Source: Candidatus Omnitrophota bacterium (GTDB lineage Bacteria > Omnitrophota > Omnitrophia > Omnitrophales > Aquincolibacteriaceae). From it: a stretch of 64,000 bases of DNA. This document shows positions 9,128-64,000 of this stretch, one piece after another (within the stretch, counting starts at the first letter, position 1; the number at the start of each line of letters is the position of its first letter). The stretch lies in contig JBDRCT010000040.1 of assembly GCA_043821445.1 (NCBI GenBank), forward strand, positions 26,745-90,744, given 5' to 3'. Made by a program: the position numbers and the translations under genes. The notes below the pieces were generated by a model, which saw only the letters and a program-made list of their open reading frames with translations, did not search any database and was not told the DNA's origin.

Positions 9128-10306
9128 ATGGCCCAATCGGTCCTGAAAAACAACAAAGAAGTGTCCGACCAGGTCCGGCTTGCCTTTCAATGGCTGCAGA
9201 ATTCCGGCATTCAGATCCGATCCCAAGACCCTCAAACGAACGGAGGCGTTTGTTCCTGGTTTGATCTCGAACGCAACTCTTATCCGTTCATTTACGCAGA
9301 AATTACCGGATACGCGGTCAACGCGTTCTTGTTCCAGCACAAGATTACGGGTGATCTGTCTTATCTGACCTCTGCGGTCAGAGCGGGAGACTGGCTTCTG
9401 AAGAACCGTTGCTCCCAAACCGGTCTGGTCCGGACCCGCCACTGGCTAGATGAAACCAAAGCCCCCTATTATGATCAGTATTTCTTCACCTTTGACCAAT
9501 GGATCATTGTTTACGGCCTGGCCTGTTTGGCGGAGGTCACCCGGGAGCCTCGATTTCATGAAGGCGCAACTTCTATCGCTAAATACCTGCTTGCCAAAAC
9601 GCTCAGGAGCGACGGCTTCTTTTATCCCTTGTACGATGGCGCTCAGCACAGATCCGTGGAATTCGGCGATAAATGGTCGCGTCAGGCGGGTAGTTTTCAT
9701 GCCAAAGCGCTTATGGCGCTTTCTAAACTTTTCCAGATTACCGGAGAACCGGCCTACCGTCATGCAGCAGAGCGGTTGCTTACAAAAACTCTATTCGCGC
9801 AAACCCCCGAGGGTCGTTTCATCACTCAGGACAGCGATCAAAGTACCCACCTCCATCCTTTTCTGTATACGCTGGAGGGTCTGGCGTCCTACGCGCTTTC
9901 GGAAGGCAAGAAAGAGATCCTAATCGCGGTGGAACGCGCCATGAAGTGGGTCCTGGACCGGCAAAATGCCGATGGTTCCCTGTACTGCTTTTATCAAGGC
10001 GGAAGTTTCAGGCCCTGCGTTAGAGCTGATATTATGGCCCAGGTACTCAGGATGGGTACGATCCTGACGCAGCAGGGGCTTCTGGAGGGATCCGCACAAT
10101 CTCTCGATAAACTCCGTGGAAAATTGGAAACCTATCAGGTTCCCGAAGGATCTCAGACTGGCGGCTTTATGTATGGACAGGAAGAGAACGGCGCGGTGCA
10201 CAGTCATGTGAACGCCTGGGTCACCATGTTCGCATCTCAAGCGATGTGCATTCACGACGGCCTACGTCAGACACGCCCCTCTTACGATATGTCGTTTTTT
10301 GTTTAA
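9128..10306 (+). CDS. hypothetical protein, possibly an (alpha/alpha)6-toroid / six-hairpin-like enzyme of unknown specificity
   Basis: 392-aa soluble protein with a good SD (GAGGAAGAACATG). Aromatic- and acidic-rich repeats (W/Y/F-rich helices) are reminiscent of AGE/glycosidase-like toroids. No secure family assignment from sequence alone. Confidence 0.35.
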   Translation: MAQSVLKNNKEVSDQVRLAFQWLQNSGIQIRSQDPQTNGGVCSWFDLERNSYPFIYAEITGYAVNAFLFQHKITGDLSYLTSAVRAGDWLLKNRCSQTGLVRTRHWLDETKAPYYDQYFFTFDQWIIVYGLACLAEVTREPRFHEGATSIAKYLLAKTLRSDGFFYPLYDGAQHRSVEFGDKWSRQAGSFHAKALMALSKLFQITGEPAYRHAAERLLTKTLFAQTPEGRFITQDSDQSTHLHPFLYTLEGLASYALSEGKKEILIAVERAMKWVLDRQNADGSLYCFYQGGSFRPCVRADIMAQVLRMGTILTQQGLLEGSAQSLDKLRGKLETYQVPEGSQTGGFMYGQEENGAVHSHVNAWVTMFASQAMCIHDGLRQTRPSYDMSFFV

Positions 10307-13677: not shown

Positions 13678-14480
13678 TCGAATCTTTGAAAGAACTGAAC
13701 AGGATCTGTCAGAAGCCTGACTACAAGACGCAAGGGAACTGGTATGTCCGGACGATCCTCAGGGATGCCGCTTTGCCCATGACCTGGCTCTTACTCCATA
13801 CCGGCGTGACTGCGAATCAGGTGACCCTGACCTCGCTTGCCGTGAGCCTCGCGGGCATGATCTTTCTGTCGATCCCCGGAACGAGTGCGTTCTTAGCAGG
13901 GGTTGTGCTTTTACAGCTGTGGTATTATCTGGATCATGTGGACGGACAGATCGCGCGCTATCGGAAGACTGATTGTCTCACAGGCCGGTTCCTGGATTTT
14001 CTGACTCATCATATTGTTCACACCGCTCTCTTTTTTGCTTTAGGTTTTCATGTTTTTCAAGTGACAGGATCAGCATTATTCGCTCTGTGGGGGTTCGTGA
14101 ACTCTCTGGCGATCCTGGTCTTCAATATTGCCCATGATGTTAAATATAAGACTTTTTTTGAAGCCATTGCAAAGCAGCGAACAGTGACGTTAACGATCCA
14201 AGAAGAGACCGGGTCGTGCAAGGTTTCCGGAGAACCGGCCTCCTTAAAACGGCGTTTATTTTCCCTTGCTCACAAACTCTGTGAGATTCATGTCATGATG
14301 AACATTCTTACGTTGGGCGCCGTAGTTCAAATATTTGTTAGTGTTTTCGATATCCGGACCGTTCTCTTCCTGATCTATGGTTTTCTCGCTCCCGCAATTT
14401 CGATCATAAAGGTGGCTTACATCCTCAAGACCCGAAAGATCGATCATGAATACCGGGAAATATTTTGCCAAAAAACTTGA
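13674..14480 (+). CDS. polytopic membrane protein, CDP-alcohol phosphatidyltransferase-like
   Basis: DHVDGQIARYRKTDCLTGRFLDFL resembles the D-G-x2-A-R-x8-G-x3-D signature. Multiple TM helices. ATG 13674 overlaps the upstream stop (ATGA). Confidence 0.45.
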   Translation: MIESLKELNRICQKPDYKTQGNWYVRTILRDAALPMTWLLLHTGVTANQVTLTSLAVSLAGMIFLSIPGTSAFLAGVVLLQLWYYLDHVDGQIARYRKTDCLTGRFLDFLTHHIVHTALFFALGFHVFQVTGSALFALWGFVNSLAILVFNIAHDVKYKTFFEAIAKQRTVTLTIQEETGSCKVSGEPASLKRRLFSLAHKLCEIHVMMNILTLGAVVQIFVSVFDIRTVLFLIYGFLAPAISIIKVAYILKTRKIDHEYREIFCQKT

Positions 14481-16486
14481 AGGCCGCCATTCCCCCCCCC
14501 ACTTCTGGAAATTCTTTCCCGGTACTGTCAGCCCATCGGAGTGGCCTCCTCGCGGGTTTTCTGTTCGTGATGCTCGCCTGGCAATGTTTTTATTCGGCCT
14601 GGACCCAGGGACAGACAACCGATGAAGCTTTTTTTGCGCCAAGCGGATATTCCATTGTCCGGTACAATAACTACGAGTTTTTAGGCGAACATCCGCCCTT
14701 GATTTTGCAGCTAGGAGCTTTGCCGCTTTTGGCGATACAGCCGAAATTCCCGATCAAAGATCCGCTCTACGTTCCCGGGACGGACAGGCTTGATCTCACG
14801 CAGAACGGCCTTCGATTTCTTTACAAAATGGGGAATGATCCCGACTTGATACTGTTCCTTCAACGAATTCCTATCGTTCTGTTGACGGTTCTTCTCGGTG
14901 TGGGCGTTTTTCTTTTTACCAGGGAGCTTTGGGGGGATTGGGGAGGGCTGCTTTCGCTGGCTCTTTTTTCGTTCTCTCCGAATATGATCGCCCATGGAAG
15001 TCTCTACACTACCGATCTGGGACTGACAGCCTTCTATTTCTTTGTGATCTACGCATTCAAACGTTTTTCTGACTCGCCTTCAGACCGTCGTGTTGCCTGG
15101 CTCGGACTAGCCTGCGGTGCCGCTTTGATGACAAAGATCAGCAGTCTGATTCTTTTACCGGTCCTTTCCAGTTTGTTTTTGGTCTACTATTTTACGGAGG
15201 CCCGGCAGACCCTTATCGAGGCGCCTTCATTATCTTTTGAAAAATGGATCCTCGGAATCGCGCTTTTCCTGATCGCGAACGCGATCGGAGAGAGGCAAGC
15301 AATGGTTCTCTTCGGACCATTTCTTGTTTTTGCGGCCTATCTTTGCGCCCGTGATATCGAAAAACTCCGGAATTCACGGGCTCTCAGAATTGCACTCAAA
15401 GGGGCGGCCCTTGCCGGAGCTATCCTCTGTGTCGTTTACTCCATACGACTCAAAAAGAAATATGGGATTTCAGCCGCGTCCATTTTAGCCGCCGGGAATC
15501 TCGTGGCGCTTGGTGCCGCTGTCTTATTGGCCCGGCTCTCTACGGAGGATGTCAGGATACGTGTTTTGAAATATTTTCTTGCGATCTGGGTTTTGGCCGC
15601 GCTGGTGATCGTTCTCGGATACACCGATTTTCTTTACAAATTCTACCGTTTCATCGGCTTTGGCAATTACATGAAGCCACTCGGGATCGTTCTGTCGCAT
15701 TCGAAAGGCGGGCATGGGGCCTGCGTTGAAGGCTCGTTCATCACTTGTGATTGGCGATATTTCCCTGGCGTGATGGCGATTAAAACTCCGTTACTGACAT
15801 TGGTTTTAACGGTTATCGGGGCCATGGGGCTGCTCTTCTCCAAACGTTCCATCCTGACTAAGTCCCTAGTCTTTGTTCCGCTTGTTTTTTTTCTCGCCGC
15901 AGCCATGCTGAACAAGATCCATATCGGTCTACGGCATATTCTTCCCGTGTTCCCGTTCTTTTTTCTTCTTGCCGGATATGCCGGGTATCTTATCGGCAAG
16001 ATCAAACCGAAGTTCTTTAGAAATGCCGTGGCAGTGTTTTTGACGCTCCTGGTCATTCTATCTGCCGGCCGGAGCCTGGCCGGTGGGCCAGACCATCTCG
16101 CTTATTTTAACGAGCTTACCGGCGGACCCGAACAGGGGGCCAAGCTGGTCGCGGATTCGAATCTAAACTGGGGACAGGACAATAAGCGTCTTGCCGAGTT
16201 TGTCCTTGAAAAGAAGATCCGTTTTATTAAGATCATGGCCGAGGCAATGAACACGGATGTGTACAGCTACTATAAAATCCCGTGGAAGATGCTCGAGCCG
16301 GGCGATCTTATAGATCCAGCTCCTGGATTTTACGCTCTCGGCATCGGCTGTTACACTCAGCAGCAGAACGATCCACGTTCGTGGTTCAAAGGAAAGCAGC
16401 CCAAATACCGGGCCGGGAAGACGTTTTATGCGTTTGAGGTGCCGAATAAACCGACCCTGGACAACCGACTACAGGCCACAGACTGA
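14465..16486 (+). CDS. GT-C fold membrane glycosyltransferase (ArnT/PMT, GT39/GT83-like)
   Basis: 673 aa with more than 10 TM helices. YTTDLGLTAFYFFVIYAF-type loop. A C9 homopolymer lies in the first 12 codons. Confidence 0.6.
   Translation: MPKNLKAAIPPPTSGNSFPVLSAHRSGLLAGFLFVMLAWQCFYSAWTQGQTTDEAFFAPSGYSIVRYNNYEFLGEHPPLILQLGALPLLAIQPKFPIKDPLYVPGTDRLDLTQNGLRFLYKMGNDPDLILFLQRIPIVLLTVLLGVGVFLFTRELWGDWGGLLSLALFSFSPNMIAHGSLYTTDLGLTAFYFFVIYAFKRFSDSPSDRRVAWLGLACGAALMTKISSLILLPVLSSLFLVYYFTEARQTLIEAPSLSFEKWILGIALFLIANAIGERQAMVLFGPFLVFAAYLCARDIEKLRNSRALRIALKGAALAGAILCVVYSIRLKKKYGISAASILAAGNLVALGAAVLLARLSTEDVRIRVLKYFLAIWVLAALVIVLGYTDFLYKFYRFIGFGNYMKPLGIVLSHSKGGHGACVEGSFITCDWRYFPGVMAIKTPLLTLVLTVIGAMGLLFSKRSILTKSLVFVPLVFFLAAAMLNKIHIGLRHILPVFPFFFLLAGYAGYLIGKIKPKFFRNAVAVFLTLLVILSAGRSLAGGPDHLAYFNELTGGPEQGAKLVADSNLNWGQDNKRLAEFVLEKKIRFIKIMAEAMNTDVYSYYKIPWKMLEPGDLIDPAPGFYALGIGCYTQQQNDPRSWFKGKQPKYRAGKTFYAFEVPNKPTLDNRLQATD
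14492..14500 (+). repeat. C9 homopolymeric tract within the first codons (PPP) of the GT-C glycosyltransferase gene
   Basis: The sequence attCCCCCCCCCact is read directly; it lies 12 nt after the upstream gene's stop. Confidence 0.9.
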
Positions 16487-16491
16487 CAACC

Positions 16492-18186
16492 ATGAAATCT
16501 ATCGAAAAGAGTTCGCTGGTATCTTGGCTTATAAATAGCACACTTTTGTTGGCGGGCCTGGCAGCCATTTTCTTCCTGCTAACCAGCGGCGTTCTGTTTG
16601 TTCAGGCGGGGTGGATCCACGAGCTTGGGAAAAAAGGGCGGTATGTCCGCCTTATGGGAATTTCGGTTTCCGTTTTTGCCGTGCTTATGTTCCTGGCGCG
16701 ATGGAAGTTCCGGAATATCTTCGATGGATGCTGTTGGGTCAAGTGGTGGCAGGGCGTCTGCCGTATCCCTTTTCGGTACACGGCGATGGACTTGTTTGTT
16801 ATCTACGCGGCTATGATGGCGGGGGTGGGGTTTGAACGGCAGCTGGCGCTTGAAACGCGGGCGTTTGACCTCGGGCTCTTCGCGCAGGCGGTCTGGAATA
16901 CACTTCAGGGAGATTTTCTTTTTTGTTCCATCAAAGAAAATATCAACTTGTTGGGCGATCACGTCAGTCCGATCCTGCTGGCAACGGTCCCATTCTATGC
17001 GATCTGGCCCGATCCGTGCATGCTTGTCTTACTACAGGCACTTGCGGCCGCAAGCTCCTTCTTTCCCCTGGCCCTGATCGTGCGGGACAAGCTCAAAGAC
17101 CGTTCGCTTGTTCTGATCTTTCTTCTGATGTTTTTTTTCTTCCAGCCCATGCGCGCCGCACTTCACGAAGATTTTCATCCTGAAGTCCTGGCGGAGCCCT
17201 TTTTATGGTGGGCATTCTTTTTCCTCGACAGGGGAAAAGTTGTCCGGTTTCTGCTTTGTTTGGCTGTCGCGGTCACCGGTAAAGAGAATTTCTTCGGGAT
17301 CGCTTTTATGTTGGGCTTTTATGCTTGCGTTTGGAAGAAAATGCGGTGGACCGGGATCTTGGTGATGACAACCTCGGTCGTGCTTCTTTTGTGGGAGACA
17401 AGATGGCTTGTGCCGCATCTTTCCGGCGCCGTTTATTTCTACGGAGGGAATTACAGCCGGATGTTGGCCGATCCCGTTCATGGGATATTTCTGAGACTGT
17501 TGAGTTTTGAATCGTTAGAGTACCTATTTAAGATCTTTGTTCCCTTCCTCTTTCTTCCGTTCTTCCATCTCCCGACGCTTTTGCTGACTTTCCCGGTGCT
17601 TTTCCAGAATCTCCTTTCCGGGAACGGGGCTATGCGTTCTTTCAACTACCATTACGTAACGGGGATGACGCCTTTCCTTTTCATTTCAACGATCTATGCC
17701 TTGGCTAGGTTAAGAGACCGGAAAGTGTGGATCGCGAAGCATCTCTCGTGGATCGGTTTTGCGTTGTTATTTGCGAGCGTTCTCCGTTCCGGACCATCCG
17801 AGTATTGGTTTTTCTGGAATATCCACTCACACCGGAGCGCTCACACGGATATGGTAAGGGCGAAGTTGAGAGAGATTCCGCCGAGTGCCCGCATCTTGAC
17901 CCATAATACTTTTGTTCCACAGCTGTGCAACCGCAAATACATTTATCAATTTAATTATAACCCCAAACCGGACAAGATCGATTTCGTTGAAAAATATAAG
18001 ACCGACACTGTGATCTGGGACCGGAATTACTGGGAACCCAACACAGAATCCCTGGAAACTTCGCTCGAACGGTTGCAATCAGCCGGTTTTTCGGTGGAGT
18101 TCGAAAAGGATGGCTTTTATATACTTCGGAAGACCGTAGCACTTGCTCCTATGAGCAAGTACGATGCCGCCACTTTCACGGATTGA
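16492..18186 (+). CDS. large polytopic membrane protein (DUF2079-like; possible GT-C-type transferase)
   Basis: 564 aa, highly hydrophobic with many predicted TM segments and a soluble C-terminal domain. Confidence 0.4.
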   Translation: MKSIEKSSLVSWLINSTLLLAGLAAIFFLLTSGVLFVQAGWIHELGKKGRYVRLMGISVSVFAVLMFLARWKFRNIFDGCCWVKWWQGVCRIPFRYTAMDLFVIYAAMMAGVGFERQLALETRAFDLGLFAQAVWNTLQGDFLFCSIKENINLLGDHVSPILLATVPFYAIWPDPCMLVLLQALAAASSFFPLALIVRDKLKDRSLVLIFLLMFFFFQPMRAALHEDFHPEVLAEPFLWWAFFFLDRGKVVRFLLCLAVAVTGKENFFGIAFMLGFYACVWKKMRWTGILVMTTSVVLLLWETRWLVPHLSGAVYFYGGNYSRMLADPVHGIFLRLLSFESLEYLFKIFVPFLFLPFFHLPTLLLTFPVLFQNLLSGNGAMRSFNYHYVTGMTPFLFISTIYALARLRDRKVWIAKHLSWIGFALLFASVLRSGPSEYWFFWNIHSHRSAHTDMVRAKLREIPPSARILTHNTFVPQLCNRKYIYQFNYNPKPDKIDFVEKYKTDTVIWDRNYWEPNTESLETSLERLQSAGFSVEFEKDGFYILRKTVALAPMSKYDAATFTD

Positions 18187-18307
18187 CGTGTGCGGCATCG
18201 ATCGCAGACCGAAGCCGCCTCTTGGCGAGCCGCGCCTGATTTTCAGGGCGGGACTACAGACCACTGACTACGGTAGACCGATGGGGGAACGGAGGGCGCA
18301 ATGAAGC

Positions 18308-18345
18308 GTACCCTGCAAAGACCCGGTCTTTGCACCACAGACGAT
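18308..18345. repeat. left copy of a ~38-bp direct repeat containing a perfect 10/1/10 palindrome TGCAAAGACC-C-GGTCTTTGCA
   Basis: gtaCCCTGCAAAGACCCGGTCTTTGCACCAcagacgat; palindrome at 18314..18334. Confidence 0.85.
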
Positions 18346-18616
18346 AGTTCACGCGCAAGCGGTTCATCATTCCTGGCCAAAGGATGGGGGTTCATCCTAG
18401 AACAGATCCCCGTTCGCTAATCAACCCTGCTGGATATTATCGCGACACCGAGCAGGACCGATCTAGGCCTTTATGAACTCGGGATTGTATGATGTTCCTT
18501 GTAAATGCTCTTAGAGGACATCTATGGGAAATAGAGTGCAACGCGAGGCAGCACCCTTCGAGAACTCTGACGAGAAATTGTTCTAGCCGACTTTGAGCAG
18601 AAGCCTATTCTGCCTG

Positions 18617-18688
18617 TTGACAATTGACGATGGCATGATAGACTTTCATTGTAAAATAGTTACTCAATAGTAATCCAATGGGTTACTT
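18617..18688 (+). promoter_or_regulatory. putative promoter/operator of AbiEi-1
   Basis: TTGACA at 18617 (TTGACAATTGACG). TAGACT-like -10 at about 18639. GTTACT ... AGTAAT ... GTTACT repeats precede the ATG. Confidence 0.4.
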
Positions 18689-19489
18689 ATGAAGAATATA
18701 AATACATTCAGCGGTTTGGGCCCCAAGGAGGCGGAATTCGTAGCTCGTCTTTCCTATGAAAAAAAGACCATCGTCACGGCGGATGAAATAGACAAATTTC
18801 TTCCGGCCGACTTCAAGTATCGCAGGCAATTTGTTTATACTCTGAAACAGAAGCGGGTACTCACACCCATCAAAGGCGGGGTGTATATTTTTACGCCGCT
18901 TGACTCGATCGCCACGGGAACACGCGTTCATGAGTTCCTGATCCCCGCCGTCTTTCTTCCGCGTGGGAACTATTACCTCGGATACTCGGTGATGTTCAAC
19001 TATTACGGGTTCACCGAACAGATCTTCCAGACGGTCTATGTGATCAATACGTCCCTGTGCAAAGAAAAGATGGTGTGCGGCATCGCGTATAAATTCGTTA
19101 AAGTCCCGGAAAAACGCATGTATGGGATCGAGAAGATCACGGTCCAGGGCGTGACCGTCCCCGTCAGTTCGAAGGAAAGGACTTTGGTGGATCTCATTTA
19201 TTTCAATAAACCGGTTGGCGGAGTTATCCCGGCGGTTCAGATCCTTAAGGACACCGTGAAGCGGAAACAGTGCGATATCGGAAAGCTTGTGGAAATGGCG
19301 TCCCGTTTTCCCAATATTACGGCGCGTAAAAGAATCGGCGTAACGCTTGAAGGGCTTGGTGTCGGATGTGCGGTCCTGAAGCCGCTTATAAAGAGTGTCG
19401 AGAAAACAGCGATCAATTCGCTGGAGGATTCCCGTAAAGGTTCTCTGAACACAACATGGAGGGTCATCGTTGGTGATCCACGAAAATAA
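18689..19489 (+). CDS. AbiEi-family antitoxin / transcriptional regulator
   Basis: About 266 aa with an N-terminal wHTH-like segment. Encoded immediately upstream of, and overlapping, a nucleotidyltransferase AbiEii-like gene. Own TTGACA promoter. Confidence 0.65.
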   Translation: MKNINTFSGLGPKEAEFVARLSYEKKTIVTADEIDKFLPADFKYRRQFVYTLKQKRVLTPIKGGVYIFTPLDSIATGTRVHEFLIPAVFLPRGNYYLGYSVMFNYYGFTEQIFQTVYVINTSLCKEKMVCGIAYKFVKVPEKRMYGIEKITVQGVTVPVSSKERTLVDLIYFNKPVGGVIPAVQILKDTVKRKQCDIGKLVEMASRFPNITARKRIGVTLEGLGVGCAVLKPLIKSVEKTAINSLEDSRKGSLNTTWRVIVGDPRK

Positions 19490-20351
19490 AGACGATTTTC
19501 TGAATGTTCTGAAGCAGACGTCGGCGCAGACCGGGTTCACTCTGTCGCTGATCGAAAAGGACTATTACCTGACGCTTGTTCTATCGCGTCTTCAGGATCT
19601 CAGTTCCAATCTGATCTTCAAGGGCGGGACATGTCTCAATAAGGTCTATTATTCCTATTACCGGCTGAGCGAAGACCTTGACTTCAGCATGCGGCTTCCT
19701 GATGGGAAGGTGACTAAGACCGTGCGGAGCCGGTCCATGAAACCCATCAAGGAGAAGATAGGGGAGTTTGCCGCGCAGTTTGGAATGAAACTCGATACCA
19801 CAAAGAACCCCGGCCGGAACGAATCAAAACAATACGTTTTTGATCTCGCTTATCCTTCTGTAGTACTGCCTCAGGAAGCAAAAATAAGGTTTGAGGTTGG
19901 CCTACGGTTCAACCCGGTTTGCCCGGTTGAAAAACATGAAGTTCAGCATCAATTTACGCATCCTTTTACCGGGGAACGTTTGTTTGACGGCGGTGAGGTG
20001 AATTGCCTGGGCCTCAAAGAGCTGGTCTCCGAAAAGCTGCGTGCTGCCGCTCTCCGTAAAACCATCGCGCCCCGTGATTTTTATGATCTTGATTTCATTC
20101 TACGGAAAAAATTTGACCTCACGGATCGCGAAGTGCTGGAGCTTTTCCGGAAGAAACTCGCGGAAGACGGCGGAGATGCGGATATCACCAGGTACCGGGT
20201 GAATCTTGGAAGACGGCCCGAGGAGATCAAAGACATGAGTGGCAGGATCAAGGAGGAGCTCTTCGAAGTTCTGACCGCTGAAGAGCGCAAGAACTTTGAC
20301 CTTGATACTGCGATCGCACGGCTGAACCAGGCATTTTCCAAGTTGGCGTAA
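19470..20351 (+). CDS. AbiEii/AbiGii-family nucleotidyltransferase toxin
   Basis: IFKGGTCLNKVY ... RLSEDLDFS, the hallmark NTase motif. 293 aa. Confidence 0.8.
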   Translation: MVIHENKDDFLNVLKQTSAQTGFTLSLIEKDYYLTLVLSRLQDLSSNLIFKGGTCLNKVYYSYYRLSEDLDFSMRLPDGKVTKTVRSRSMKPIKEKIGEFAAQFGMKLDTTKNPGRNESKQYVFDLAYPSVVLPQEAKIRFEVGLRFNPVCPVEKHEVQHQFTHPFTGERLFDGGEVNCLGLKELVSEKLRAAALRKTIAPRDFYDLDFILRKKFDLTDREVLELFRKKLAEDGGDADITRYRVNLGRRPEEIKDMSGRIKEELFEVLTAEERKNFDLDTAIARLNQAFSKLA

Positions 20352-20404
20352 TGTCCGGAATATCGAAACATTCGACCTAGGACAAGTGTGGATAATACCG
20401 GACG

Positions 20405-20442
20405 GTGCCCTGCAAAGACCCGGTCTTTGCACCATGGAGGAT
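20405..20442. repeat. right copy of the ~38-bp direct repeat (same palindrome)
   Basis: gtgCCCTGCAAAGACCCGGTCTTTGCACCAtggaggat. Together with 18308 it brackets the AbiE cassette. Confidence 0.85.
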
Positions 20443-20467
20443 GGTGCTTTGCAGCGGTAAATTCTGC

Positions 20468-20534
20468 TTGACAGTGCTTTTTTGTAATGTAATACTTATT
20501 ATAGACAATGTAATACATTTAAAAGGAGCCCGTT
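20468..20534 (+). promoter_or_regulatory. putative promoter/operator of the vapB-like gene
   Basis: TTGACA at 20468. Direct repeat ATGTAATAC x2 (about 20488 and 20508). GGAG SD. Confidence 0.4.
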
Positions 20535-20762
20535 ATGAAACGAAAAGGATTGACTTCCGTTCAGCTAAGGCCAAAGATCGCAAAAATGGTTGCGCTCTTG
20601 ATGAACCGGGAGGGCATGACAAAAACCGAGATCATTAATGAGGCGCTTCGCCGATTTCTTCTTGAACGGGAATTTCAAGGGGTCCGGGAAAAGCTCATTC
20701 CGTATGCCCAAGCCAAGGGCATTTATACCGAAGACGATGTTGACCGGGTCCTTGGTCCATGA
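20535..20762 (+). CDS. small antitoxin-like DNA-binding protein (VapB/RHH-like)
   Basis: 75 aa. MTKTEIINEALRRFL is a ribbon-helix-helix-like segment. ATGA overlap with a PIN-domain gene downstream. Confidence 0.6.
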   Translation: MKRKGLTSVQLRPKIAKMVALLMNREGMTKTEIINEALRRFLLEREFQGVREKLIPYAQAKGIYTEDDVDRVLGP

Positions 20763-21157
20763 GGGTGGTTTTTGACACCAATATCCTTCTCTCGGCTTTT
20801 TTGACCAAGGATGGAGTTGCCCAGCAGCTTTTTGCAAGAGTTATTGCGGGGCACGAGATCCTTGCTTCCGAGTATATCCTTAAGGAGGCTGTTGAAAAAT
20901 TATCCGGCAAACTGAAGGTCCCAGAACGGGAAACAGGCTCCTTTATGCGTTATGTCCGGACCCGTATGACCGTGATCGACCTCTCGGGGAAAACGAGGCG
21001 GGTTGATTTTGAGGACCTTAAAGACGTTCCGATACTTCATCTGCTTGAATTCGCCGGGGTCCATTATTTCGTTACAGGCGATAAAAAACTCCTTGCTCTT
21101 AAAAAGCACCGGCAGACCCTCATCTTAAGTCTCCGAGAAGCCCTCGAGCTTTTATGA
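20759..21157 (+). CDS. vapC: PIN-domain ribonuclease toxin
   Basis: MRVVFDTNILLSAF is the conserved PIN N-terminus. Acidic residues (D, E, D) distributed as in VapC. 132 aa. Confidence 0.8.
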   Translation: MRVVFDTNILLSAFLTKDGVAQQLFARVIAGHEILASEYILKEAVEKLSGKLKVPERETGSFMRYVRTRMTVIDLSGKTRRVDFEDLKDVPILHLLEFAGVHYFVTGDKKLLALKKHRQTLILSLREALELL

Positions 21158-22053
21158 GTACTTCGTCCTTTAAAGCCCGCATTGTGATCCTGAACTATAA
21201 CGGGGAAGAGATGCTGGCGAAGTGTCTGCCAAGCATTGCTGAAGCGGTGCGCTGTGCTAAGACACCGACTGCTGTCACGATCTTAGACAATCTGAGCATA
21301 GATCAAAGTGAGTCCTATGTCCGGAAGAATTATCCCGAGATGGAGTTTGTGAAGGCGCCGGAAAACCTAGTGCTTTGCTCCTACAATGATTACCTCAAGA
21401 CGGTCTCTGAGCCGATCGCGATCCTGCTCAATAACGATATCCAGGTCGACAAGAACTTCATTGATCCGATGGTTGAAAAATTTTCAGGCGATCCGAGGAC
21501 TTTCCTGGTCGCTCCGCGCTGCCATAGCTTTGACAAAGCGAATGTGGAAGCGGTGGATGCTAGAATGAAAATCCGGTTCGGGATGCCATGGATTAGCGCA
21601 CGTTATCCGGGATACGAGGCTCATACGATGATCCCATCTAAGACCGTTTCATCCGGATTCGGCGCTTTTTCGAAAGAAAAATTCTTGGAACTCGGAGGCT
21701 ATGACCGGAGGTACTTACCCGGGATCATGGAGGATGTGGATCTGTGCCTTAAAGCCCAACGCTCGGGATATCATCTTTATTACGAGCCGCGCAGTTTGGT
21801 CTATCATATGGGACAGGTAAGTTTTAAAAAAGCTTACACGAGTCTTCGGCGTGAAACGATCGCTTGCCGTAATACATTCCTTTTCGCATGGAAGAATTTC
21901 CGAGGTTTCGGATTTTGGTTTCGGCACATTCTTTTCTTACCGCTTTGGATGGTTTTTTCTCTTTTGAGGCTCCGCCCGGAATTTCCGCTCGGACTTTTCG
22001 AAGCATTGCGCCATGGTTCCGGTCACCGCGACATCCTTCGAGGCATTCATTGA
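21154..22053 (+). CDS. GT2 glycosyltransferase
   Basis: RIVILNYNGEE ... ILDNLS ... DxD-type motifs. Start ATG overlaps the vapC stop (ATGA). Confidence 0.75.
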   Translation: MSTSSFKARIVILNYNGEEMLAKCLPSIAEAVRCAKTPTAVTILDNLSIDQSESYVRKNYPEMEFVKAPENLVLCSYNDYLKTVSEPIAILLNNDIQVDKNFIDPMVEKFSGDPRTFLVAPRCHSFDKANVEAVDARMKIRFGMPWISARYPGYEAHTMIPSKTVSSGFGAFSKEKFLELGGYDRRYLPGIMEDVDLCLKAQRSGYHLYYEPRSLVYHMGQVSFKKAYTSLRRETIACRNTFLFAWKNFRGFGFWFRHILFLPLWMVFSLLRLRPEFPLGLFEALRHGSGHRDILRGIH

Positions 22054-25208: not shown

Positions 25209-26659
25209 ATCCTTTATTTTTAAAACTAAAAAACATCGCTGCTTTTGAGTGGGCCATTTTTTTTCTGATGGCTTTGTGGACCGCGCTGACGTTTTCCATC
25301 GCCCTAACCGAGATCACATTCGTTTGCGCTTTGATCTGCTGGGTCGGATGGCATATTCAGCAAAAAAAAGGCATCTGCCAAAATGCGCCGGCAGGAGGGA
25401 AAATCGACTGGGCATTCTGGATGCCGCTCGCACTCTTTTTTGTGTGCGTCCTGAGCTCATTTTTCACCTCGGAATATCCAAAACAAAGCCTCCGGGGCCT
25501 ATACAAGATCGCAAAGCCGCTTCTAGCCTTCATCATGGCGATCGATCTCTTCAGGGACACAAGATCCCAGAAACGCTTCGACGGTATTTTTTTAGCAACC
25601 TTTCTTTTGGTGACGATCGATTGTTCGATCCAATACGCCTTCGGGAAGGATATCCTCCGGGGTTTCGCGGCCGAGCAATCCGCGGCAGGGATACGGCTCA
25701 TAGGCCCTTTCGGCAATTTCGCAAAAATGGCCACCTACCTCGTATTGGTGATCCCTGTTTTTGGGATGCGTTTCTGGAGTGATTACACGCGATCGGAACA
25801 GCGCAAAAGATCTTTTTATAGTCTGGCTCTTGCGATAGCCGGCCTTGTGCTTCTCTATCTGACCCGTTGCCGCGGCCCTGTGGTGGCGCTTGCTTTTAGT
25901 TTTGGAATACTCTTCATTTACAAGCGCTGGTTCAAGGTGGTGGGGATCGCTTTGTTGCTCGGCCTTGCTCTGTTGGCGGTCGTGCCGCGAGGAGTGATCA
26001 TTCATGCGAATAAAGATTCTAGAGAGCAGTCTTTCGTCGAACGGCTTTGTCTTTGGCAGCGAGCTTTCGACGTGATCAAAGCCAAACCGTTAACGGGCAC
26101 GGGAATTAATACCTATGACAAGGCGCATGCAAAATACGACACGCAACAGCGCAAAAACCTTGCGTCGTTACGGGGGCCAACAACCAGTGTCCGGCAAGAG
26201 CAGAATGGCTCTGTTAGTTTCATAACAGGGGAAACGATTTACACATCAGACGTAAAACAAACCAATATTCGGCTTGGCGATAAAAAGTACAACCTTTTTA
26301 GAGACGCAAAGGGCGAATATTATATCTATGATACTTTACTTGTTCGCGGTTATTACGCCCATAACGGCTATCTTCAACTCGCGGCGGAGATCGGGCTTCC
26401 CGGGATTTTCTGTTTTCTTTGGTTCCTTTTCATGTTCTTCCGGAAAGTCCTGGGAGGCCTGGGGGCTATTCGAGGCTCTCCCGAGGAATATACGCGTTTG
26501 GGAATTCTGACGGGCCTCCTGGCCTTTTTGATCTATGCCATTGGTGATAACAATCTTCAAAGTCCGCCTTCCCTGATGTTTTTCTGGTTCTCGGCGGGCA
26601 TTTTGATGGCAAGGCAAAGCGCCGCTCCGTCGGAAATCATTTCATCAAAAAAACCATAA
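25205..26659 (+). CDS. O-antigen ligase / polymerase family membrane protein (Wzy_C domain)
   Basis: About 10 TM helices. AHNGYLQLAAEIGLPG Wzy_C/WaaL signature. ATGA overlap upstream. Confidence 0.7.
   Translation: MNPLFLKLKNIAAFEWAIFFLMALWTALTFSIALTEITFVCALICWVGWHIQQKKGICQNAPAGGKIDWAFWMPLALFFVCVLSSFFTSEYPKQSLRGLYKIAKPLLAFIMAIDLFRDTRSQKRFDGIFLATFLLVTIDCSIQYAFGKDILRGFAAEQSAAGIRLIGPFGNFAKMATYLVLVIPVFGMRFWSDYTRSEQRKRSFYSLALAIAGLVLLYLTRCRGPVVALAFSFGILFIYKRWFKVVGIALLLGLALLAVVPRGVIIHANKDSREQSFVERLCLWQRAFDVIKAKPLTGTGINTYDKAHAKYDTQQRKNLASLRGPTTSVRQEQNGSVSFITGETIYTSDVKQTNIRLGDKKYNLFRDAKGEYYIYDTLLVRGYYAHNGYLQLAAEIGLPGIFCFLWFLFMFFRKVLGGLGAIRGSPEEYTRLGILTGLLAFLIYAIGDNNLQSPPSLMFFWFSAGILMARQSAAPSEIISSKKP
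26530..26628. repeat. left copy of a ~95-bp diverged direct repeat (native 3' end of the Wzy-like gene)
   Basis: gatctatgccattggtgataacaatcttcaaagtccgccttccctgatgtttttctggttctcggcgggcattttgatggcaaggcaaagc. Confidence 0.85.
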
Positions 26660-26768: not shown

Positions 26769-27326
26769 ATGAACCATTCAGAGCGTTTTAAAATACTCAT
26801 GGAATCCGGCCGGACGGTGTTTACGCCTCTGGACATGCGCATGTTATGGCGGGTAAATACGCTGAACGCCAAGATCAGTATCGTGCGTATGGTAGAAAAA
26901 GGTCTTGTGGTCCGGTTGGCCACAGGCTTTTACGCCCTGAATGACCGTTACAACCGGTACGAGTTTGCCAATAGGATCCTGTCGCCCTCCTATGTGTCCT
27001 TCCAGTCCGCGCTTTTTCATGCGGGAATCAATTTTCAGGCCCGTGACGAGATCGGATCGGTGGCCCTGCGGGATCATCGGAAGAAGGTCGGGAATACGCT
27101 CTATACCCATGCGGCCATGAAACAAGATCTTTTTTTTAATATCAAAGGGGTCGTGACGCGTGAGGGGGTAGCGATGGCATTGCCCGAGCGCGCGATCCTG
27201 GACAGCTTCTACTTCGGGTATCTTCCGGACATTGATGACGCTTCAAAGCTGAATAAGACATTTCTTGAGGAACTCAGCGCTCTTTACCCGAAAACGGTCC
27301 AAAAAAAGGTGAAGGGGCTTCTATGA
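26769..27326 (+). CDS. AbiEi-family antitoxin / regulator (second copy)
   Basis: 185 aa. Precedes and overlaps (ATGA) an AbiEii-like gene. Own TTGACA promoter with a palindromic operator. Confidence 0.6.
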   Translation: MNHSERFKILMESGRTVFTPLDMRMLWRVNTLNAKISIVRMVEKGLVVRLATGFYALNDRYNRYEFANRILSPSYVSFQSALFHAGINFQARDEIGSVALRDHRKKVGNTLYTHAAMKQDLFFNIKGVVTREGVAMALPERAILDSFYFGYLPDIDDASKLNKTFLEELSALYPKTVQKKVKGLL

Positions 27327-28018
27327 GCCGCCTTTTTGATCCGGATGTTCACAAGCGGTATCTGTCGCTTTTGCTGACGGAACTGGCCAAAGCTTTCCCC
27401 GAGAAGATCGCCTTTAAAGGCGGGACCTGCGCTTATTTTTTTTATAACCTTCCGAGGTTTTCGTTCGATCTTGATTTTGACATGCTCCGGGAGTTCAGCG
27501 CCGGGGACGCGGACAGGTTCCGTGAAGTCCTTTCGCGGCATGGGCAAGCGAAGGAATTTCGGGACAAGCAGAACACGCTTTTCTGCCTTTTTGATTACGG
27601 AAAGGGACATCCCAACATCAAGATCGAACTGGGCCGGCGCGTATGGAAAAATAACGTTTATAAACCGGTCTGGTTTTTAGGAGTGCCTCTTGTCATCGCC
27701 GATGAACGAACGGTGCTGACCAATAAACTTGTTGCCCTGACCGACCGGAAGACCGCGGTTGCGAGGGATCTTTATGACAGTTGGTATTTTTTGAAGGCGG
27801 GATTTCCCGTGAGCGAGGCTCTTGTCATGGAGCGTACGGGAAAGGATCTTGGAGCGTACCTTAAAGGGGCGATGGGCTTTATCAGAAGGACCTATACCCC
27901 GCGCAATGTCCTGCACGGGCTGGGTGACGTGCTGGATGAGAAGCAAAAGTCGTGGGCCAAAGACCATCTTGTTCTTGAAACGATCCTGGAGATGAAGAAA
28001 CGGATCACACCGCTATGA
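27323..28018 (+). CDS. AbiEii-family nucleotidyltransferase toxin (second copy)
   Basis: IAFKGGTCAYFF ... RFSFDLDFD NTase motif. Confidence 0.8.
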   Translation: MSRLFDPDVHKRYLSLLLTELAKAFPEKIAFKGGTCAYFFYNLPRFSFDLDFDMLREFSAGDADRFREVLSRHGQAKEFRDKQNTLFCLFDYGKGHPNIKIELGRRVWKNNVYKPVWFLGVPLVIADERTVLTNKLVALTDRKTAVARDLYDSWYFLKAGFPVSEALVMERTGKDLGAYLKGAMGFIRRTYTPRNVLHGLGDVLDEKQKSWAKDHLVLETILEMKKRITPL

Positions 28019-28034
28019 AAAATTATGACTTTCT

Positions 28035-28124
28035 GATCGATGCCTTCGGCGATAACAATCTCCAAAGTCCGCCCTCCCTGATGTTTTTCTGGTTCTCGGC
28101 GGGCATTTTGATGGCAAGGCAGAA
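28035..28124. repeat. right copy of the ~95-bp direct repeat, downstream of AbiE pair 2
   Basis: gatcgatgccttcggcgataacaatctccaaagtccgccctccctgatgtttttctggttctcggcgggcattttgatggcaaggcagaac. About 8 mismatches against the left copy. Confidence 0.85.
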
Positions 28125-48519: not shown

Positions 48520-49588
48520 AGACAGACTCAATAGCAGGATGGTGAATGGCGGAATGAGGATTAAATCACCGGCCCGTCAATATGCGCATCTCCGGAAGGC
48601 CATTGCCGGCGAGCTTCTGTCCGGGGCCGAGCGGGTCCGGCGGTCTTACCGGGAAGAGGTCGTACGCACCGCCTGGAACATCGGGCGGATCCTGCGGGGG
48701 ACCCTGGGACTCGAGGACCGGCCCAGCGCCGAAAATGCCGCGCTCGTCAGACGCCTCTCTAAGGACTTCGGTAAGTCTGACTCTTTCTTCTACGATGCTG
48801 CCAAATTCCACCGGTTGTATCCCTCGAAAGCACCAGTCGCGCTCAGTTTGTCGCATTATTCTCTTTTGATCCGCCTGGAAGATCCGGGGGAGCGTCTCGC
48901 CCTTGAAAAAAAGGCCATCGCCGAAGACATTAATGCCAAAGATCTCCGGATGTACACGCGCCTCGATCCATGGCAAGCCCCTGCTGACGGAAAGAGGGTT
49001 GTCCTCACCGCCCCGCGCGGGCGTCTTTATCATTATCGCGCGTCGAACGCACCCAAGGATGGGCGGGTCTTGATCGACATCGGGTTTGGGATCGAACGAG
49101 ACGTACGCTTTAATAGCAAAAAAAGTTTCCACTCAGGGCTTATTGTGCGGGCAGTCAGGACCGTTCCTGGCTTGAAGAGTAGCCCCATGGAGAATTATTC
49201 TGCAAAGATAGCGCCTTTCGACAAAAACCGGCTCTATACCTATGCCGCCTCGCTTGTGCGAGTGATCGACGGGGATACGCTGATCGCGCGCGTCGATCTA
49301 GGTTTCCGGACATGGATCACCCAGACGTTCCGCCTCCGGGGGATCGATGCGCCCGAGATGACCTGCGCTTTAGGACAGAAAGCAAAGGCCGAGGTAAAGG
49401 CCCGTTTGGCTCCCTGCGCCTGTCTTGTGATCAAGACTTACAAACAGGAAAAATACGGCCGTTTTCTAGCGGATGTGTTCTACCTGAAAGGAGTTGAGGA
49501 CCGAGACCGGATCCTGCGTGAGGGCGCTTTTTTGAACCAGGAGCTTTTGGATGAGAGGTTGGCGGTGCCGTACGAAGAGGAAGGCTAG
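48500..49588 (+). CDS. DUF1016_N (YhcG N-terminal)-like domain fused to a staphylococcal-nuclease (SNase/thermonuclease) domain
   Basis: N-terminal WNIGR ... LSLSHYSLLIRLEDPGERLALEKKAIAEDINAKDLR matches the recalled DUF1016_N pattern. C-terminal VIDGDTL ... RLRGIDAPE ... EKYGRFLADV SNase motifs. Visibly GC-rich. Confidence 0.55.
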   Translation: MNRCCRRDRLNSRMVNGGMRIKSPARQYAHLRKAIAGELLSGAERVRRSYREEVVRTAWNIGRILRGTLGLEDRPSAENAALVRRLSKDFGKSDSFFYDAAKFHRLYPSKAPVALSLSHYSLLIRLEDPGERLALEKKAIAEDINAKDLRMYTRLDPWQAPADGKRVVLTAPRGRLYHYRASNAPKDGRVLIDIGFGIERDVRFNSKKSFHSGLIVRAVRTVPGLKSSPMENYSAKIAPFDKNRLYTYAASLVRVIDGDTLIARVDLGFRTWITQTFRLRGIDAPEMTCALGQKAKAEVKARLAPCACLVIKTYKQEKYGRFLADVFYLKGVEDRDRILREGAFLNQELLDERLAVPYEEEG

Positions 49589-63718: not shown

Positions 63719-64000
63719 AAGCTTTCTCCAAGAACGTCATTCTGAGCCCCCCAGGAGCGAAGAATCTTAAACGAGATCCTTCGGCTACGTCTCAGGATGA
63801 CAAGACAATATCCGTTCCAGTAGCTCAAGTGGCGGTTCCGCTCCCGATCCCCACGATCTTCAGCTATGGAATCCCGGAGCCTCTCCTCTCCAAGGCCGTT
63901 CCCGGCGTTCGCGTGACCGTTCCGTTCCGTAACACCGAGATCACGGGGTACCTGGTCGGCACTGGCGAAAATGAGTGCGGCACCGAGAGTCCCCAAAAGC
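63714..64000 (+). CDS. priA: primosomal protein N' (PriA), 5' partial; start uncertain
   Basis: VAQVAVPLPIPTIFSYGIPEPL ... GVRVTVPFRNTEITGYLVG matches the PriA N-terminal consensus. The GTG at 63714 overlaps the UDG stop; an internal GTG near 63828 is an alternative. The ORF runs off the window. Confidence 0.65.
63736..63801. repeat. nested-palindromic REP/MITE-like element, copy 2 (5' region of priA)
   Basis: GTCATTCTGAGCC-ccccagga-GCGAAGAATCTT-aaac-GAGATCCTTCGG-ctacgt-CTCAGGATGAC. Confidence 0.8.

What the first reader, a model, noticed from the sequence alone, without database searches (positions are those of the whole stretch)
18308..20442. AbiEi/AbiEii pair 1 is bracketed by 38-bp direct repeats built around a perfect 21-bp palindrome
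gtaCCCTGCAAAGACCCGGTCTTTGCACCAcagacgat at 18308-18345 and the near-identical gtgCCCTGCAAAGACCCGGTCTTTGCACCAtggaggat at 20405-20442 flank the 2-kb AbiE unit. The palindrome has 10-nt arms and a 1-nt centre. That looks more like a recombinase or nuclease recognition site (attachment-site-like) than a transcription terminator, since no U-tract follows. The vapBC pair sits just outside the right repeat. The repeat therefore marks a boundary between two independently acquired toxin-antitoxin units.
Basis: seen in the sequence. Interest (0 to 1): 0.65.

Follow-up and report, generated by a model that had tools for sequence, protein, structure and literature searches.

The report
REP palindromes flanking an AbiE cassette
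The two repeats around this toxin-antitoxin gene pair are copies of a small hairpin-forming "REP" repeat that travels with a dedicated transposase family in Candidatus Omnitrophota, so they are a fairly ordinary kind of genomic repeat and not a special docking site for the gene cassette.

Summary
A 41-nt direct repeat (88% identical) lies at 18308-18348 and 20405-20445. It holds a perfect 27-nt core and a 21-nt palindrome, occurs only at these two places in the window, and has no T-tract.

- **Independent acquisition is supported.** Two relatives of this Candidatus Omnitrophota MAG have DUF2079 abutting GT2. One has vapBC only. The window has AbiE plus vapBC.
- **The palindrome is not a cassette attachment site.**
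  - The conserved AbiE unit, seen in five other contexts, spans only ~18608-20378.
  - None of those five copies carries the palindrome.
  - The vapBC-only relative has no copy in its spacer.
  - A close relative carries a 93%-identical copy in an unrelated spacer.
- **It belongs to a REP family.** The same hairpin, with compensatory stem changes, flanks REP-associated tyrosine transposase (RAYT)-like genes. A sister variant is scattered as intergenic doublets in an Omnitrophota MAG.

Why a copy sits on each side is unresolved. Either the cassette integrated at a REP-bearing spacer, or the two spacers were seeded independently. Most accessory cassettes examined are bracketed by local imperfect direct repeats. 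This is a new member of a known kind, of modest interest.

The parts
18308..18348 (+). REP copy 1. Layout: GTAC tag, CC, 10-nt arm TGCAAAGACC, centre C, arm GGTCTTTGCA, CCA tail, then CAGACGATAGT. The palindrome is 18314-18334 and the perfect core shared with copy 2 is 18311-18337.
18252..18307 (+). Left extension of copy 1 (the 'long form'). It consists of an ACTACAGAC-type motif followed by CGGAGGGCGCAATGAAGC. It is shared with the single copy in relative L001 (window 18290-18345 is 93% identical to L001 9328-9383) and is absent from copy 2.
20405..20445 (+). REP copy 2 (the 'short form', GTGC tag). The palindrome is 20411-20431. It is followed at 20446-20456 by GCTTTGCAGCG, an extra arm-like sequence that can pair with the left arm in an alternative fold.
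18208..20464 (+). Segment present in the window but replaced by 62 unrelated nt in the vapBC-only relative L008. It contains both REP copies, a 260-nt leader and the AbiE unit.
   Evidence: window 18100-18207 aligns to L008 11612-11719, and 20465-20600 to L008 11782-11917
18349..18607 (.). Unassigned non-coding leader between REP copy 1 and the AbiE promoter. It has no ORF of 40 aa or more that lies wholly within it, no homology in any fetched locus, and no RAYT remnant.
18608..20378 (+). Conserved AbiE unit, as defined by nucleotide homology in four other loci representing three genomic contexts. It contains a sigma-70-like promoter (18617-18644), abiEi (18689-19489) and abiEii (19473-20351).
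20468..21157 (+). The older vapBC-like unit: promoter 20468-20496, AATGTAATAC direct repeats 20486-20525, RHH antitoxin gene 20535-20762 and PIN toxin gene 20759-21157. The PIN stop codon overlaps the GT2 start codon (ATGA).
16492..18186 (+). Upstream flanking gene, a DUF2079 membrane protein. In relatives L005 and L009 its stop codon lies 9 nt from the GT2 start codon.
21154..22053 (+). Downstream flanking gene, a family-2 glycosyltransferase. It is the ancestral neighbour of DUF2079.

Best explanation
Both repeats are copies of a REP (repetitive extragenic palindrome) from a family found in Candidatus Omnitrophota.

**What the element is.** It has an unpaired GTRC tag, a 9-10-bp stem with a small loop, and a CCA tail followed by about 10 nt. 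It forms a hairpin in single-stranded DNA or RNA. It is the kind of substrate recognised by a REP-associated tyrosine (Y1/HUH) transposase, which would be encoded elsewhere in the genome. That step is inferred, because no such gene lies in the window.

**Order of events at the locus (shown by comparison with relatives).**
1. DUF2079 and GT2 were originally adjacent.
2. A vapBC unit was inserted between them.
3. An AbiE unit with its own promoter was inserted upstream of vapBC.

**Why a REP sits on each side (inferred).** The AbiE DNA most likely integrated at a spacer that already held a REP. The ~41-nt REP unit then ended up on both sides, either as the short homology used for recombination or as the duplicated target. 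Most other accessory cassettes in these genomes are likewise bracketed by imperfect direct repeats of local sequence.

The REP is therefore not a cassette-specific attachment site. Any present function, such as an mRNA 3' hairpin or an insulator between the AbiE and vapBC transcription units, is untested.
For: **REP identity**
- The identical stem flanks a Y1-transposase ORF on both sides in L004. Pfam assigns that ORF to Y1_Tnp. Its only NCBIfam hit is 'REP-associated tyrosine transposase'.
- Homologous genes 72% and 61% identical in protein are flanked by hairpins with compensatory stem changes: GACC/GGTC becomes CACC/GGTG and then TACC/GGTA.
- In the formal pair count, the co-varying pair is G:C in 6 copies, C:G in 4 and U:A in 4, and is never unpaired. 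Overall 83% of cells are paired, against 27-41% when the partners are slid.
- The transposase family is common in Omnitrophota MAGs.
- A degenerate family pattern finds 7 Omnitrophota loci among 55 hits in 185,579 species genomes. These include intergenic doublets on 4 contigs of the RAYT-bearing MAG.
- A 56-nt copy 93% identical to copy 1 lies in an unrelated spacer of a relative with 82-89% nucleotide identity. The window's orthologous spacer lacks it.

**Not a cassette attachment site**
- The conserved AbiE unit spans only 18608-20378.
- None of the five other contexts carries the palindrome (for L010-L013; for L071).
- The vapBC-only relative has no copy.

**Order of insertions**
-.

**Integration at a REP**
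- D7 is the only significant direct repeat around AbiE pair 1.
- Five other cassette insertions carry local direct repeats of 42-210 nt at 82-95% identity. They are AbiE pair 2 and DUF4143 in the window, and the AbiE units in L010, L011 and L012.
- Copy 2 lacks the long left flank that copy 1 shares with L001.
Against: - The source genome could not be examined beyond the window. Only 2 copies occur in 64 kb.
- The relative's 232-kb contig gave one exact hit.
- About 65 kb of loci from three relatives have none.
- High copy number, and a cognate RAYT in this organism, are therefore not shown.
- L004, which has the identical stem, is a 1.2-kb metagenome contig of unknown host.
- The edges of D7 coincide with the natural REP unit. 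All 5 mismatches fall in the 14 flank positions and none in the 27-nt core (hypergeometric p = 0.003). That pattern fits two independently seeded REPs as well as, or better than, a plain target duplication.
- One AbiE context (L071) has no direct-repeat bracket.
- No single-REP 'pre-insertion' site was found.
Confidence: 0.55

Rival explanations
1. Two independent REP insertions. After the AbiE cassette arrived, a RAYT acting in trans seeded a REP unit separately into each of the two new non-coding spacers. The bracketing is then incidental. It reflects the scarcity of spacers in a tightly packed operon.
For: - The edges of D7 equal the natural REP unit shared by copy 1, copy 2 and L001.
- The mismatches lie only in the flanks.
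- REPs in the sister MAG sit in many unrelated spacers.
- The spacers next to inserted cassettes are among the few long non-coding stretches here. The simulated chance that two elements land in adjacent spacers is about 0.07.
- The vapBC-only relative has no REP.
Against: - The cassette would then lack the direct-repeat bracket seen in 5 of 6 comparable insertions.
- Copy 2 is a short form, whereas copy 1 and L001 share a long left flank.
- A chance of 0.07 is low, though not negligible.
- The element is rare in all sequence examined.
Confidence: 0.3
2. A RAYT-mobilised cargo transposon. The two REP hairpins, in the same orientation, act like the left and right ends of an IS200/IS605-type element. 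The segment ~18208-20464, carrying AbiE as cargo, would move as single-stranded DNA.
For: - The hairpins lie in direct orientation at both ends of the window-specific segment.
- Y1 transposases use subterminal hairpins in that geometry (established knowledge on IS608).
- RAYT-like genes with this hairpin exist.
Against: - No second instance of a REP-AbiE-REP unit was found.
- An exact palindrome scan of 241 million metagenome records gave only L001 and L004 as related hits. The 185,579 species genomes gave none.
- Other AbiE copies lack the hairpins.
- RAYTs are generally regarded as domesticated single-copy genes (abstract of PMC5581495, listed).
Confidence: 0.05
3. A dedicated site-specific recombination site, such as an integron attC, a Xer/pdif-type module border or an integrase att site, that brackets the cassette.
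For: - Direct repeats flank a 2-kb accessory unit.
- The palindrome could be read as two inverted arms around a 7-bp centre.
- In L011 a resolvase gene lies next to the same type of cassette.
Against: - The centre is itself palindromic, and stem positions co-vary to keep pairing. That indicates a hairpin and not an asymmetric crossover region.
- There is no attC-type R'/R'' core, and the cassette has its own promoter.
- The other five contexts of the cassette have different borders or none.
- The vapBC-only relative has no site.
- The element flanks RAYT genes instead.
Confidence: 0.03
4. The hairpins are kept mainly for an RNA-level function. They would be 3'-end stabilisers or U-tract-less terminators or insulators at the ends of the DUF2079 and abiEii transcripts. 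Their REP ancestry would then be secondary.
For: - All three window-type copies lie shortly downstream of a + strand gene and in the same orientation.
- The core is perfectly conserved while the flanks diverge.
- REPs lie mostly downstream of coding regions and are thought to act as RNA elements (PMC3733652).
Against: - There are no expression data.
- The fold z-scores of the 81-nt contexts are unremarkable, at -1.3 to -1.9.
- There is no T-tract.
- Relatives manage without the element at the same junctions.
Confidence: 0.07

Closest known systems
REP elements with their REP-associated tyrosine transposases (RAYT; REPINs and 'REPtrons' of Proteobacteria)
   Same: - It is a short extragenic palindrome with an unpaired 5' tetranucleotide and a 3' CCA-like tail.
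- The hairpin is maintained by compensatory changes.
- The same hairpin flanks a Y1/HUH transposase gene on both sides.
- Presence differs between close relatives.
- Doublets occur in a sister genome.
   Different: - The host phylum is Omnitrophota. A three-term full-text search (Omnitrophota, transposase, palindromic) found no paper.
- The tag is GTAC or GTGC, not GTAG.
- The transposases are about 213 aa long and score below the NCBIfam equivalog cut-off.
- The copies in the window are singletons in direct orientation 2.1 kb apart.
- High copy number is not shown.
IS200/IS605-family elements (IS608, ISDra2) and their non-autonomous derivatives
   Same: The transposase has the Y1/HUH chemistry. 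Subterminal hairpins lie in the same orientation at both ends of a DNA segment.
   Different: There is no transposase between the hairpins, no second copy of the unit, and no evidence of insertion next to a fixed tetranucleotide.
pdif modules and integron cassettes (toxin-antitoxin or resistance genes bracketed by recombination sites)
   Same: A small accessory unit holding a toxin-antitoxin pair is bracketed by short repeats with dyad symmetry.
   Different: - The site architecture does not fit. The centre is palindromic, there is no conserved crossover core, and the repeats are direct, not inverted.
- No recombinase is present.
- The same cassette has other borders elsewhere.
Homology-facilitated illegitimate recombination or single-crossover integration of foreign DNA (described for naturally transformable bacteria; abstract of PMC3240628, listed)
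   Same: It would yield inserts carrying variable amounts of foreign flank. The inserts would be bracketed by imperfect direct repeats of local sequence with variable length, as seen for 5 of 6 cassettes here.
   Different: This is inferred from sequence scars only. A 27-41-nt REP would be a very short homology anchor. Competence and recombination in Omnitrophota are unstudied.

Membership tests
REP (RAYT-associated repetitive extragenic palindrome) | Short (20-40 nt) palindrome able to form a stem-loop, kept by compensatory change | tested here: met
   The palindrome has 10-nt arms and folds as a hairpin. Across 14 copies 83% of cells are paired, against 27-41% when the partners are slid. One pair is G:C, C:G or U:A and is never broken.
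REP (RAYT-associated repetitive extragenic palindrome) | Extragenic location | tested here: met
   Both window copies, the L001 copy and the copies in the sister MAG lie between genes.
REP (RAYT-associated repetitive extragenic palindrome) | Many dispersed copies in the same genome | tested here: inconclusive
   - The source has 2 copies in 64 kb.
- The relative's 232-kb contig gave 1 exact hit.
- About 65 kb of loci from relatives have none.
- At family level, one Omnitrophota MAG has at least 8 copies on 4 contigs.
- The rest of the source genome could not be read.
REP (RAYT-associated repetitive extragenic palindrome) | A cognate RAYT gene flanked by the same REP | tested here: inconclusive
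   The feature is met on L004, which has the identical stem and a Y1_Tnp/NF047646-like ORF. It is met with co-varying stems on L014 and L015. The host of L004 is unknown, and no RAYT lies in the window.
REP (RAYT-associated repetitive extragenic palindrome) | Conserved unpaired GTAG (or CGTC) tag at one end, with a short tail at the other (PMC3733652) | tested here: inconclusive
   The window and L001 copies have GTAC, GTGC and GTAC with a CCA tail. The RAYT-flanking copies show no conserved tag.
REPIN (inverted REP doublet as the mobile unit) | Two REPs in inverted orientation separated by a short spacer | tested here: not met
   The window copies are direct and 2097 nt apart. Doublets about 38 nt apart are seen only in the sister MAG.
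Integron attC / gene cassette | Imperfect attC with R''/R' core sites, a promoterless cassette and an integrase nearby | tested here: not met
   The palindrome is perfect and has no GTTRRRY-type core. The AbiE unit has its own TTGACA-16-TAGACT promoter. No integrase was seen among the neighbouring genes. The window was not scanned exhaustively for integrases.
Xer/dif-type (pdif) module border | Two 11-nt arms around a 6-nt non-palindromic centre, with sites in inverted orientation around the module | tested here: not met
   The centre is palindromic and co-varies as a stem. The two sites are direct repeats.
Intrinsic terminator | G+C-rich stem-loop followed by a T/U tract | tested here: not met
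   The terminator scan did not call either copy. The sequences after the stems are CACAGACGAT and CATGGAGGAT.
IS200/IS605-type transposon | The same hairpin-ended unit present at several loci, and a transposase in cis or in trans | tested here: not met
   No second REP-AbiE-REP unit was found in two public collections. Other AbiE copies lack the hairpins.
AbiE (type IV toxin-antitoxin / abortive infection) pair | Adjacent, overlapping AbiEi and AbiEii genes | tested here: met
   Pfam gives AbiEi_1 at E = 7e-7 and AbiEii at E = 8e-31, and the two ORFs overlap.

The most novel reading that the evidence does not exclude
The REP pair is one instance of a more general integration route in Omnitrophota that has not been described. 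Small defence or toxin-antitoxin cassettes with their own promoters enter polysaccharide operons and leave variable-length (25-210 nt) imperfect direct repeats of the target. At this locus the route would be REP/RAYT-assisted: a REP-bearing DNA would be joined at a chromosomal REP, or a REP-ended segment would be mobilised as a cargo transposon.
Probability: 0.1. Interest if true: 0.7.

Novelty: new member of a known kind. Interest (0 to 1): 0.3.

Why it matters
Taken alone, this shows that a repeat that looked like an attachment site is a REP-type palindrome. It also adds an apparently undescribed REP/RAYT family from an uncultivated phylum, Candidatus Omnitrophota.

It gives a clean natural series for one locus: empty, then vapBC, then AbiE plus vapBC. 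That series shows toxin-antitoxin units stacking stepwise inside a cell-surface polysaccharide operon.

The more useful lead is the pattern seen alongside. Most accessory cassettes in these operons are bracketed by imperfect direct repeats of the local sequence. If that pattern reflects a specific mechanism, it would explain how defence genes are shuffled into surface-glycan loci in these bacteria.

Tried and rejected
- **Rfam.** A gathering-threshold scan of the whole window found no family.
- **Exact protein look-ups.** The window's AbiEi and GT2 proteins are not on record, so the source contig could not be extended beyond the window.
- **Exact palindrome in 185,579 species genomes.** There were no hits.
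- **L002 and L003.** Both are single copies with unrelated flanks and a different centre base. I treated them as chance or unrelated hits.
- **A single-REP empty site.**
  - Only the window and the L008 lineage have the vapBC-type junction, judged from the C-termini of 17 DUF2079 homologues.
  - L008 has no REP.
- **Another direct repeat as the 'true' scar of AbiE pair 1.** None rose above noise.
- **A decayed RAYT gene in the 260-nt leader 18349-18607.**
  - This would make the two REPs the flanks of a former REP-RAYT-REP unit.
  - A weak tblastn hit (E = 3) prompted the idea.
  - A 25-sequence family profile gave only negative scores, so I rejected it.
- **A decayed REP at window 48513-48596.** This was my early reading. 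It is doubtful, because the aligned part resembles a GAATG-rich simple motif also seen in L012. What is safe is that the palindrome is present in L001 and absent from the window at that spacer.
- **Donor/recipient origin versus in-place duplication of the direct repeats.** I compared each copy with the orthologous single copy. The result was not discriminating: D1 copies are 92% identical to each other and 80-89% identical to orthologues.
Full report
**1. The observation**

The sequence is as described. The 27-nt core CCCTGCAAAGACCCGGTCTTTGCACCA occurs exactly at 18311-18337 and 20408-20434 on the + strand. Even with 3 mismatches allowed it occurs nowhere else in the 64-kb window, and it never appeared in 100 shuffles.

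The ungapped repeat runs 41 nt (18308-18348 and 20405-20445) at 88% identity. The palindrome has 10-nt arms around one central base. Folded, it gives an 8-9-bp stem. No T-tract follows, and the terminator scan does not call either copy.

Pfam confirms the surrounding genes:
- a PMT_2 glycosyltransferase at 14465-16486;
- DUF2079 at 16492-18186;
- AbiEi at 18689-19489 and AbiEii at 19470/19473-20351;
- an RHH/VapB-like gene at 20535-20762 and a PIN gene at 20759-21157;
- GT2 at 21154-22053, whose ATG overlaps the PIN stop codon.

Nearly all genes in the window lie on the + strand in a long polysaccharide-biosynthesis cluster. The base composition shows no anomaly.

**2. Source and relatives**

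The DUF2079 protein is 100% identical to a protein of an NCBI 'Candidatus Omnitrophota bacterium' MAG. Orthologous loci from relatives form a natural series.
- In L005 (85% protein identity) and L009 (78%), the DUF2079 stop codon lies 9 nt from the GT2 start codon. Neither toxin-antitoxin unit is present.
- In L006-L008 (83%), the order is DUF2079, a 153-nt spacer, a 75-aa RHH gene, a 132-aa PIN gene and GT2. vapBC is present and AbiE is absent.
- The window has both units.

The two toxin-antitoxin units were therefore acquired separately, and the right repeat lies at their boundary.

Against L008, window 18100-18207 and 20465-20600 are homologous. Window 18208-20464 replaces 62 unrelated nucleotides. 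The L008 spacer contains no copy of the palindrome.

**3. The palindrome is not part of the AbiE cassette**

AbiEii homologues 81-85% identical in protein sit in other neighbourhoods, most of them polysaccharide clusters:
- L010 lies between GT1 and an Asn-synthase/GT fusion gene;
- L011 lies next to a resolvase gene;
- L012/L013 lies upstream of Wzy_C;
- L071 lies after a radical-SAM gene.

Nucleotide homology to the window spans only 18608/18617 to 20338/20378, that is, from the -35 box to just past the stop codon. None of L010-L013 has the palindrome even with 5 substitutions allowed. The L071 junctions show none either.

Copy 1 is thus about 260 nt outside the unit and copy 2 about 27 nt outside. 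The 260-nt leader (18349-18607) has no ORF of 40 aa or more lying wholly within it and no homologue in any fetched locus.

**4. What the palindrome is**

An exact scan for TGCAAAGACCNGGTCTTTGCA found nothing in 185,579 species genomes. It found four stretches in 241 million metagenome records. Two of these, L002 and L003, have unrelated flanks. The other two are informative.

*L001.* This locus comes from a 232-kb contig that is 82-89% identical in nucleotides to window 45-53.6 kb. It carries a 56-nt copy 93% identical to window 18290-18345. That copy lies in the spacer between a GT2 gene and an SNase-like gene. The window's orthologous spacer (48513-48596) lacks the palindrome. The element is therefore polymorphic between close relatives and unconnected with AbiE.

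*L004.* This 1.2-kb contig has ACCCTGCAAAGACCGGGTCTTTGCAGGGT twice upstream of a 213-aa ORF, one copy being degenerate, and once immediately downstream. The ORF matches Pfam Y1_Tnp. Its only NCBIfam hit is NF047646, 'REP-associated tyrosine transposase' (59 bits against a cut-off of 80). It has an HUH-type motif (THLH) and the YIHLNP tyrosine motif.

The protein family is common in Omnitrophota MAGs. Homologues 72% (L014) and 61% (L015) identical are flanked by the same hairpin with compensatory changes: CAAACACC/GGTGTTTG and CAAATACC/GGTATTTG.

Over 14 copies the stem is 83% paired, against 27-41% when the partners are slid. One pair is G:C in 6 copies, C:G in 4 and U:A in 4, and is never unpaired. 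These changes amount to about three lineages, not 14 independent events.

A degenerate pattern for the family gave 55 loci in the species genomes, where I estimated roughly 39 by chance. Seven of them come from Omnitrophota. They include intergenic doublets about 38 nt apart on four contigs of the MAG that carries the L015 transposase. They also include a copy with the window's own stem in another MAG.

The layout is a GTAC or GTGC tag, stem, loop, stem and a CCA tail. It resembles the tag-stem-tail scheme described for REPs, although the tag is not GTAG (PMC3733652).

I conclude that the repeat is a REP of a RAYT-associated family. The window and the fetched loci of relatives hold no RAYT gene.

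**5. Why a copy on each side?**

This is not settled.

*Arguments for two independently seeded REPs*
- The edges of the direct repeat coincide with the unit shared by copy 1, copy 2 and L001: GT-R-CCCTGCAAAGACC-S-GGTCTTTGCACCA-NN-GASGAT-N-G.
- All five mismatches lie in the 14 flank positions and none in the 27-nt core (p = 0.003).
- Long spacers are few in this packed cluster. Two elements dropped at random into spacers land in adjacent ones about 7% of the time.

*Arguments for a link with the integration event*
- D7 is the only significant direct repeat around AbiE pair 1.
- Comparable insertions are usually bracketed by imperfect direct repeats of local sequence.
  - AbiE pair 2 (26769-28018) is bracketed by about 95 nt at 92% identity. 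This sequence duplicates part of the Wzy_C 3' region and is single-copy in L005.
  - The DUF4143 ATPase gene (46358-47551) is bracketed by about 75 nt. This sequence duplicates the overlap between the upstream gene's stop and the GT2 start, and is single-copy in L001.
  - L010 has 68 nt at 82%, L011 has 42 nt at 86% and L012 has 210 nt at 82%.
  - L071 has none around AbiE.
- Copy 2 lacks the long left flank shared by copy 1 and L001.

*Preferred reading.* The cassette integrated at a REP-bearing spacer, and the REP unit served as the short homology or the duplicated target. This reconciles both sets of facts, and I prefer it narrowly.

The variable lengths, the imperfect identity and the variable foreign flanks inside the brackets fit one-sided homologous plus illegitimate recombination, or single-crossover integration (abstract of PMC3240628, listed). 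They do not fit an enzyme that makes a fixed target duplication. That remains inference.

**6. Rejected or weak alternatives**
- **Integron attC, Xer/pdif or integrase att site.** The centre of the site is palindromic and co-varies as a stem. The cassette has its own promoter. The cassette has other borders elsewhere.
- **Intrinsic terminator.** There is no T-tract.
- **Remnant of a REP-RAYT-REP unit.** The profile search of the leader was negative.
- **RAYT-mobilised cargo transposon.** The geometry fits, but no second copy of the unit exists in the collections searched.

**7. Verdict**

The independent-acquisition claim is confirmed. The finding is a new member of a known kind. Its most interesting aspect is the recurring direct-repeat bracketing of accessory cassettes in these operons.

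Noticed in passing
window 26524-26618 and 28029-28123 (bracketing 26769-28018): A second AbiE-like pair is bracketed by a ~95-nt direct repeat at 92% identity. The pair is a 185-aa ORF plus a 231-aa AbiEii. The repeat duplicates part of the 3' region of the Wzy_C gene. Relative L005 has that sequence once, with Wzy_C directly followed by TauE.
   Followed up: partly
window 46200-46277 and 47523-47600 (bracketing 46358-47551): A DUF4143/AAA_14 ATPase gene is inserted exactly at the stop/start overlap between the upstream gene (44823-46229; its L001 counterpart looks O-antigen-ligase-like, not Pfam-tested) and a GT2 gene. It is flanked by a ~75-nt duplication of that junction. In the left copy the GT2 ATG has become ATA. 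Relative L001 is the empty site.
   Followed up: partly
L010 9047-9114/11045-11112; L011 8146-8187/11288-11329; L012 8935-9144/11212-11421: The same AbiE cassette type in three other genomes is bracketed each time by a different local imperfect direct repeat of 68, 42 or 210 nt (82-86% identical). In L012 the left copy is a duplicated 5' fragment of Wzy_C and abuts the cassette's TTGACA box. In L011 the bracket also encloses a resolvase gene. L071 has no such bracket.
   Followed up: partly
L071 7108-7132 and 7525-7549: A 25-nt duplication of the start of an epimerase gene brackets a 392-nt non-coding insert. The insert is rich in GTCATCC...GAAGGATCTC-type repeats.
   Followed up: no
window 63040-63088 and 63735-63783; also 10124-10154 (inverted match to 63773-63803): A different short repeat family (CGTCATTCTGAGC...GCGAAGAATCT...GAGATCCTTCG) occurs at the right end of the window. 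It resembles the repeats in the L071 insert.
   Followed up: no
window 21154-21157; window 18136-18186 compared with L005 and L009: The PIN toxin stop codon overlaps the start of the operon's GT2 gene (ATGA), so the vapBC unit is translationally coupled to the host operon. In lineages with vapBC, DUF2079 carries a C-terminal extension (...RKTVALAPMSKYDAATFTD) that is absent from empty-site relatives (...RCS or ...RRS).
   Followed up: partly
L036 5034-5088; L046 153-206; L059 742-795; L069 5877-5931: In the Omnitrophota MAG SO_2016_LW3_53, the sister REP variant (CAAATACC-S-GGTATTTG) occurs as doublets about 38 nt apart in intergenic DNA on four contigs. One doublet lies next to the RAYT-like gene. 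This is a REPIN-like organisation.
   Followed up: partly
window 20408-20460: Copy 2 is followed by GGTGCTTTGCAGCGG, an extra arm-like sequence. The predicted minimum-free-energy fold pairs it with the left arm around an inner CACCAT/ATGGTG hairpin, as an alternative to the REP hairpin. It lies 10-20 nt upstream of the vapB -35 box.
   Followed up: no
window 20486-20525 and 18640-18690: There are likely antitoxin operators. AATGTAATAC direct repeats overlap the vapB promoter. GTTACT/AGTAAT-type repeats lie between the abiEi promoter and its start codon. These are separate from the REP palindrome.
   Followed up: no
L012 10981-11022; window ~48540-48570: A GAATG-rich simple motif occurs in spacers of two genomes. 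In L012 it is a tandem GAATGCGGAATGACGAATGGC x2. Its nature is unknown.
   Followed up: no
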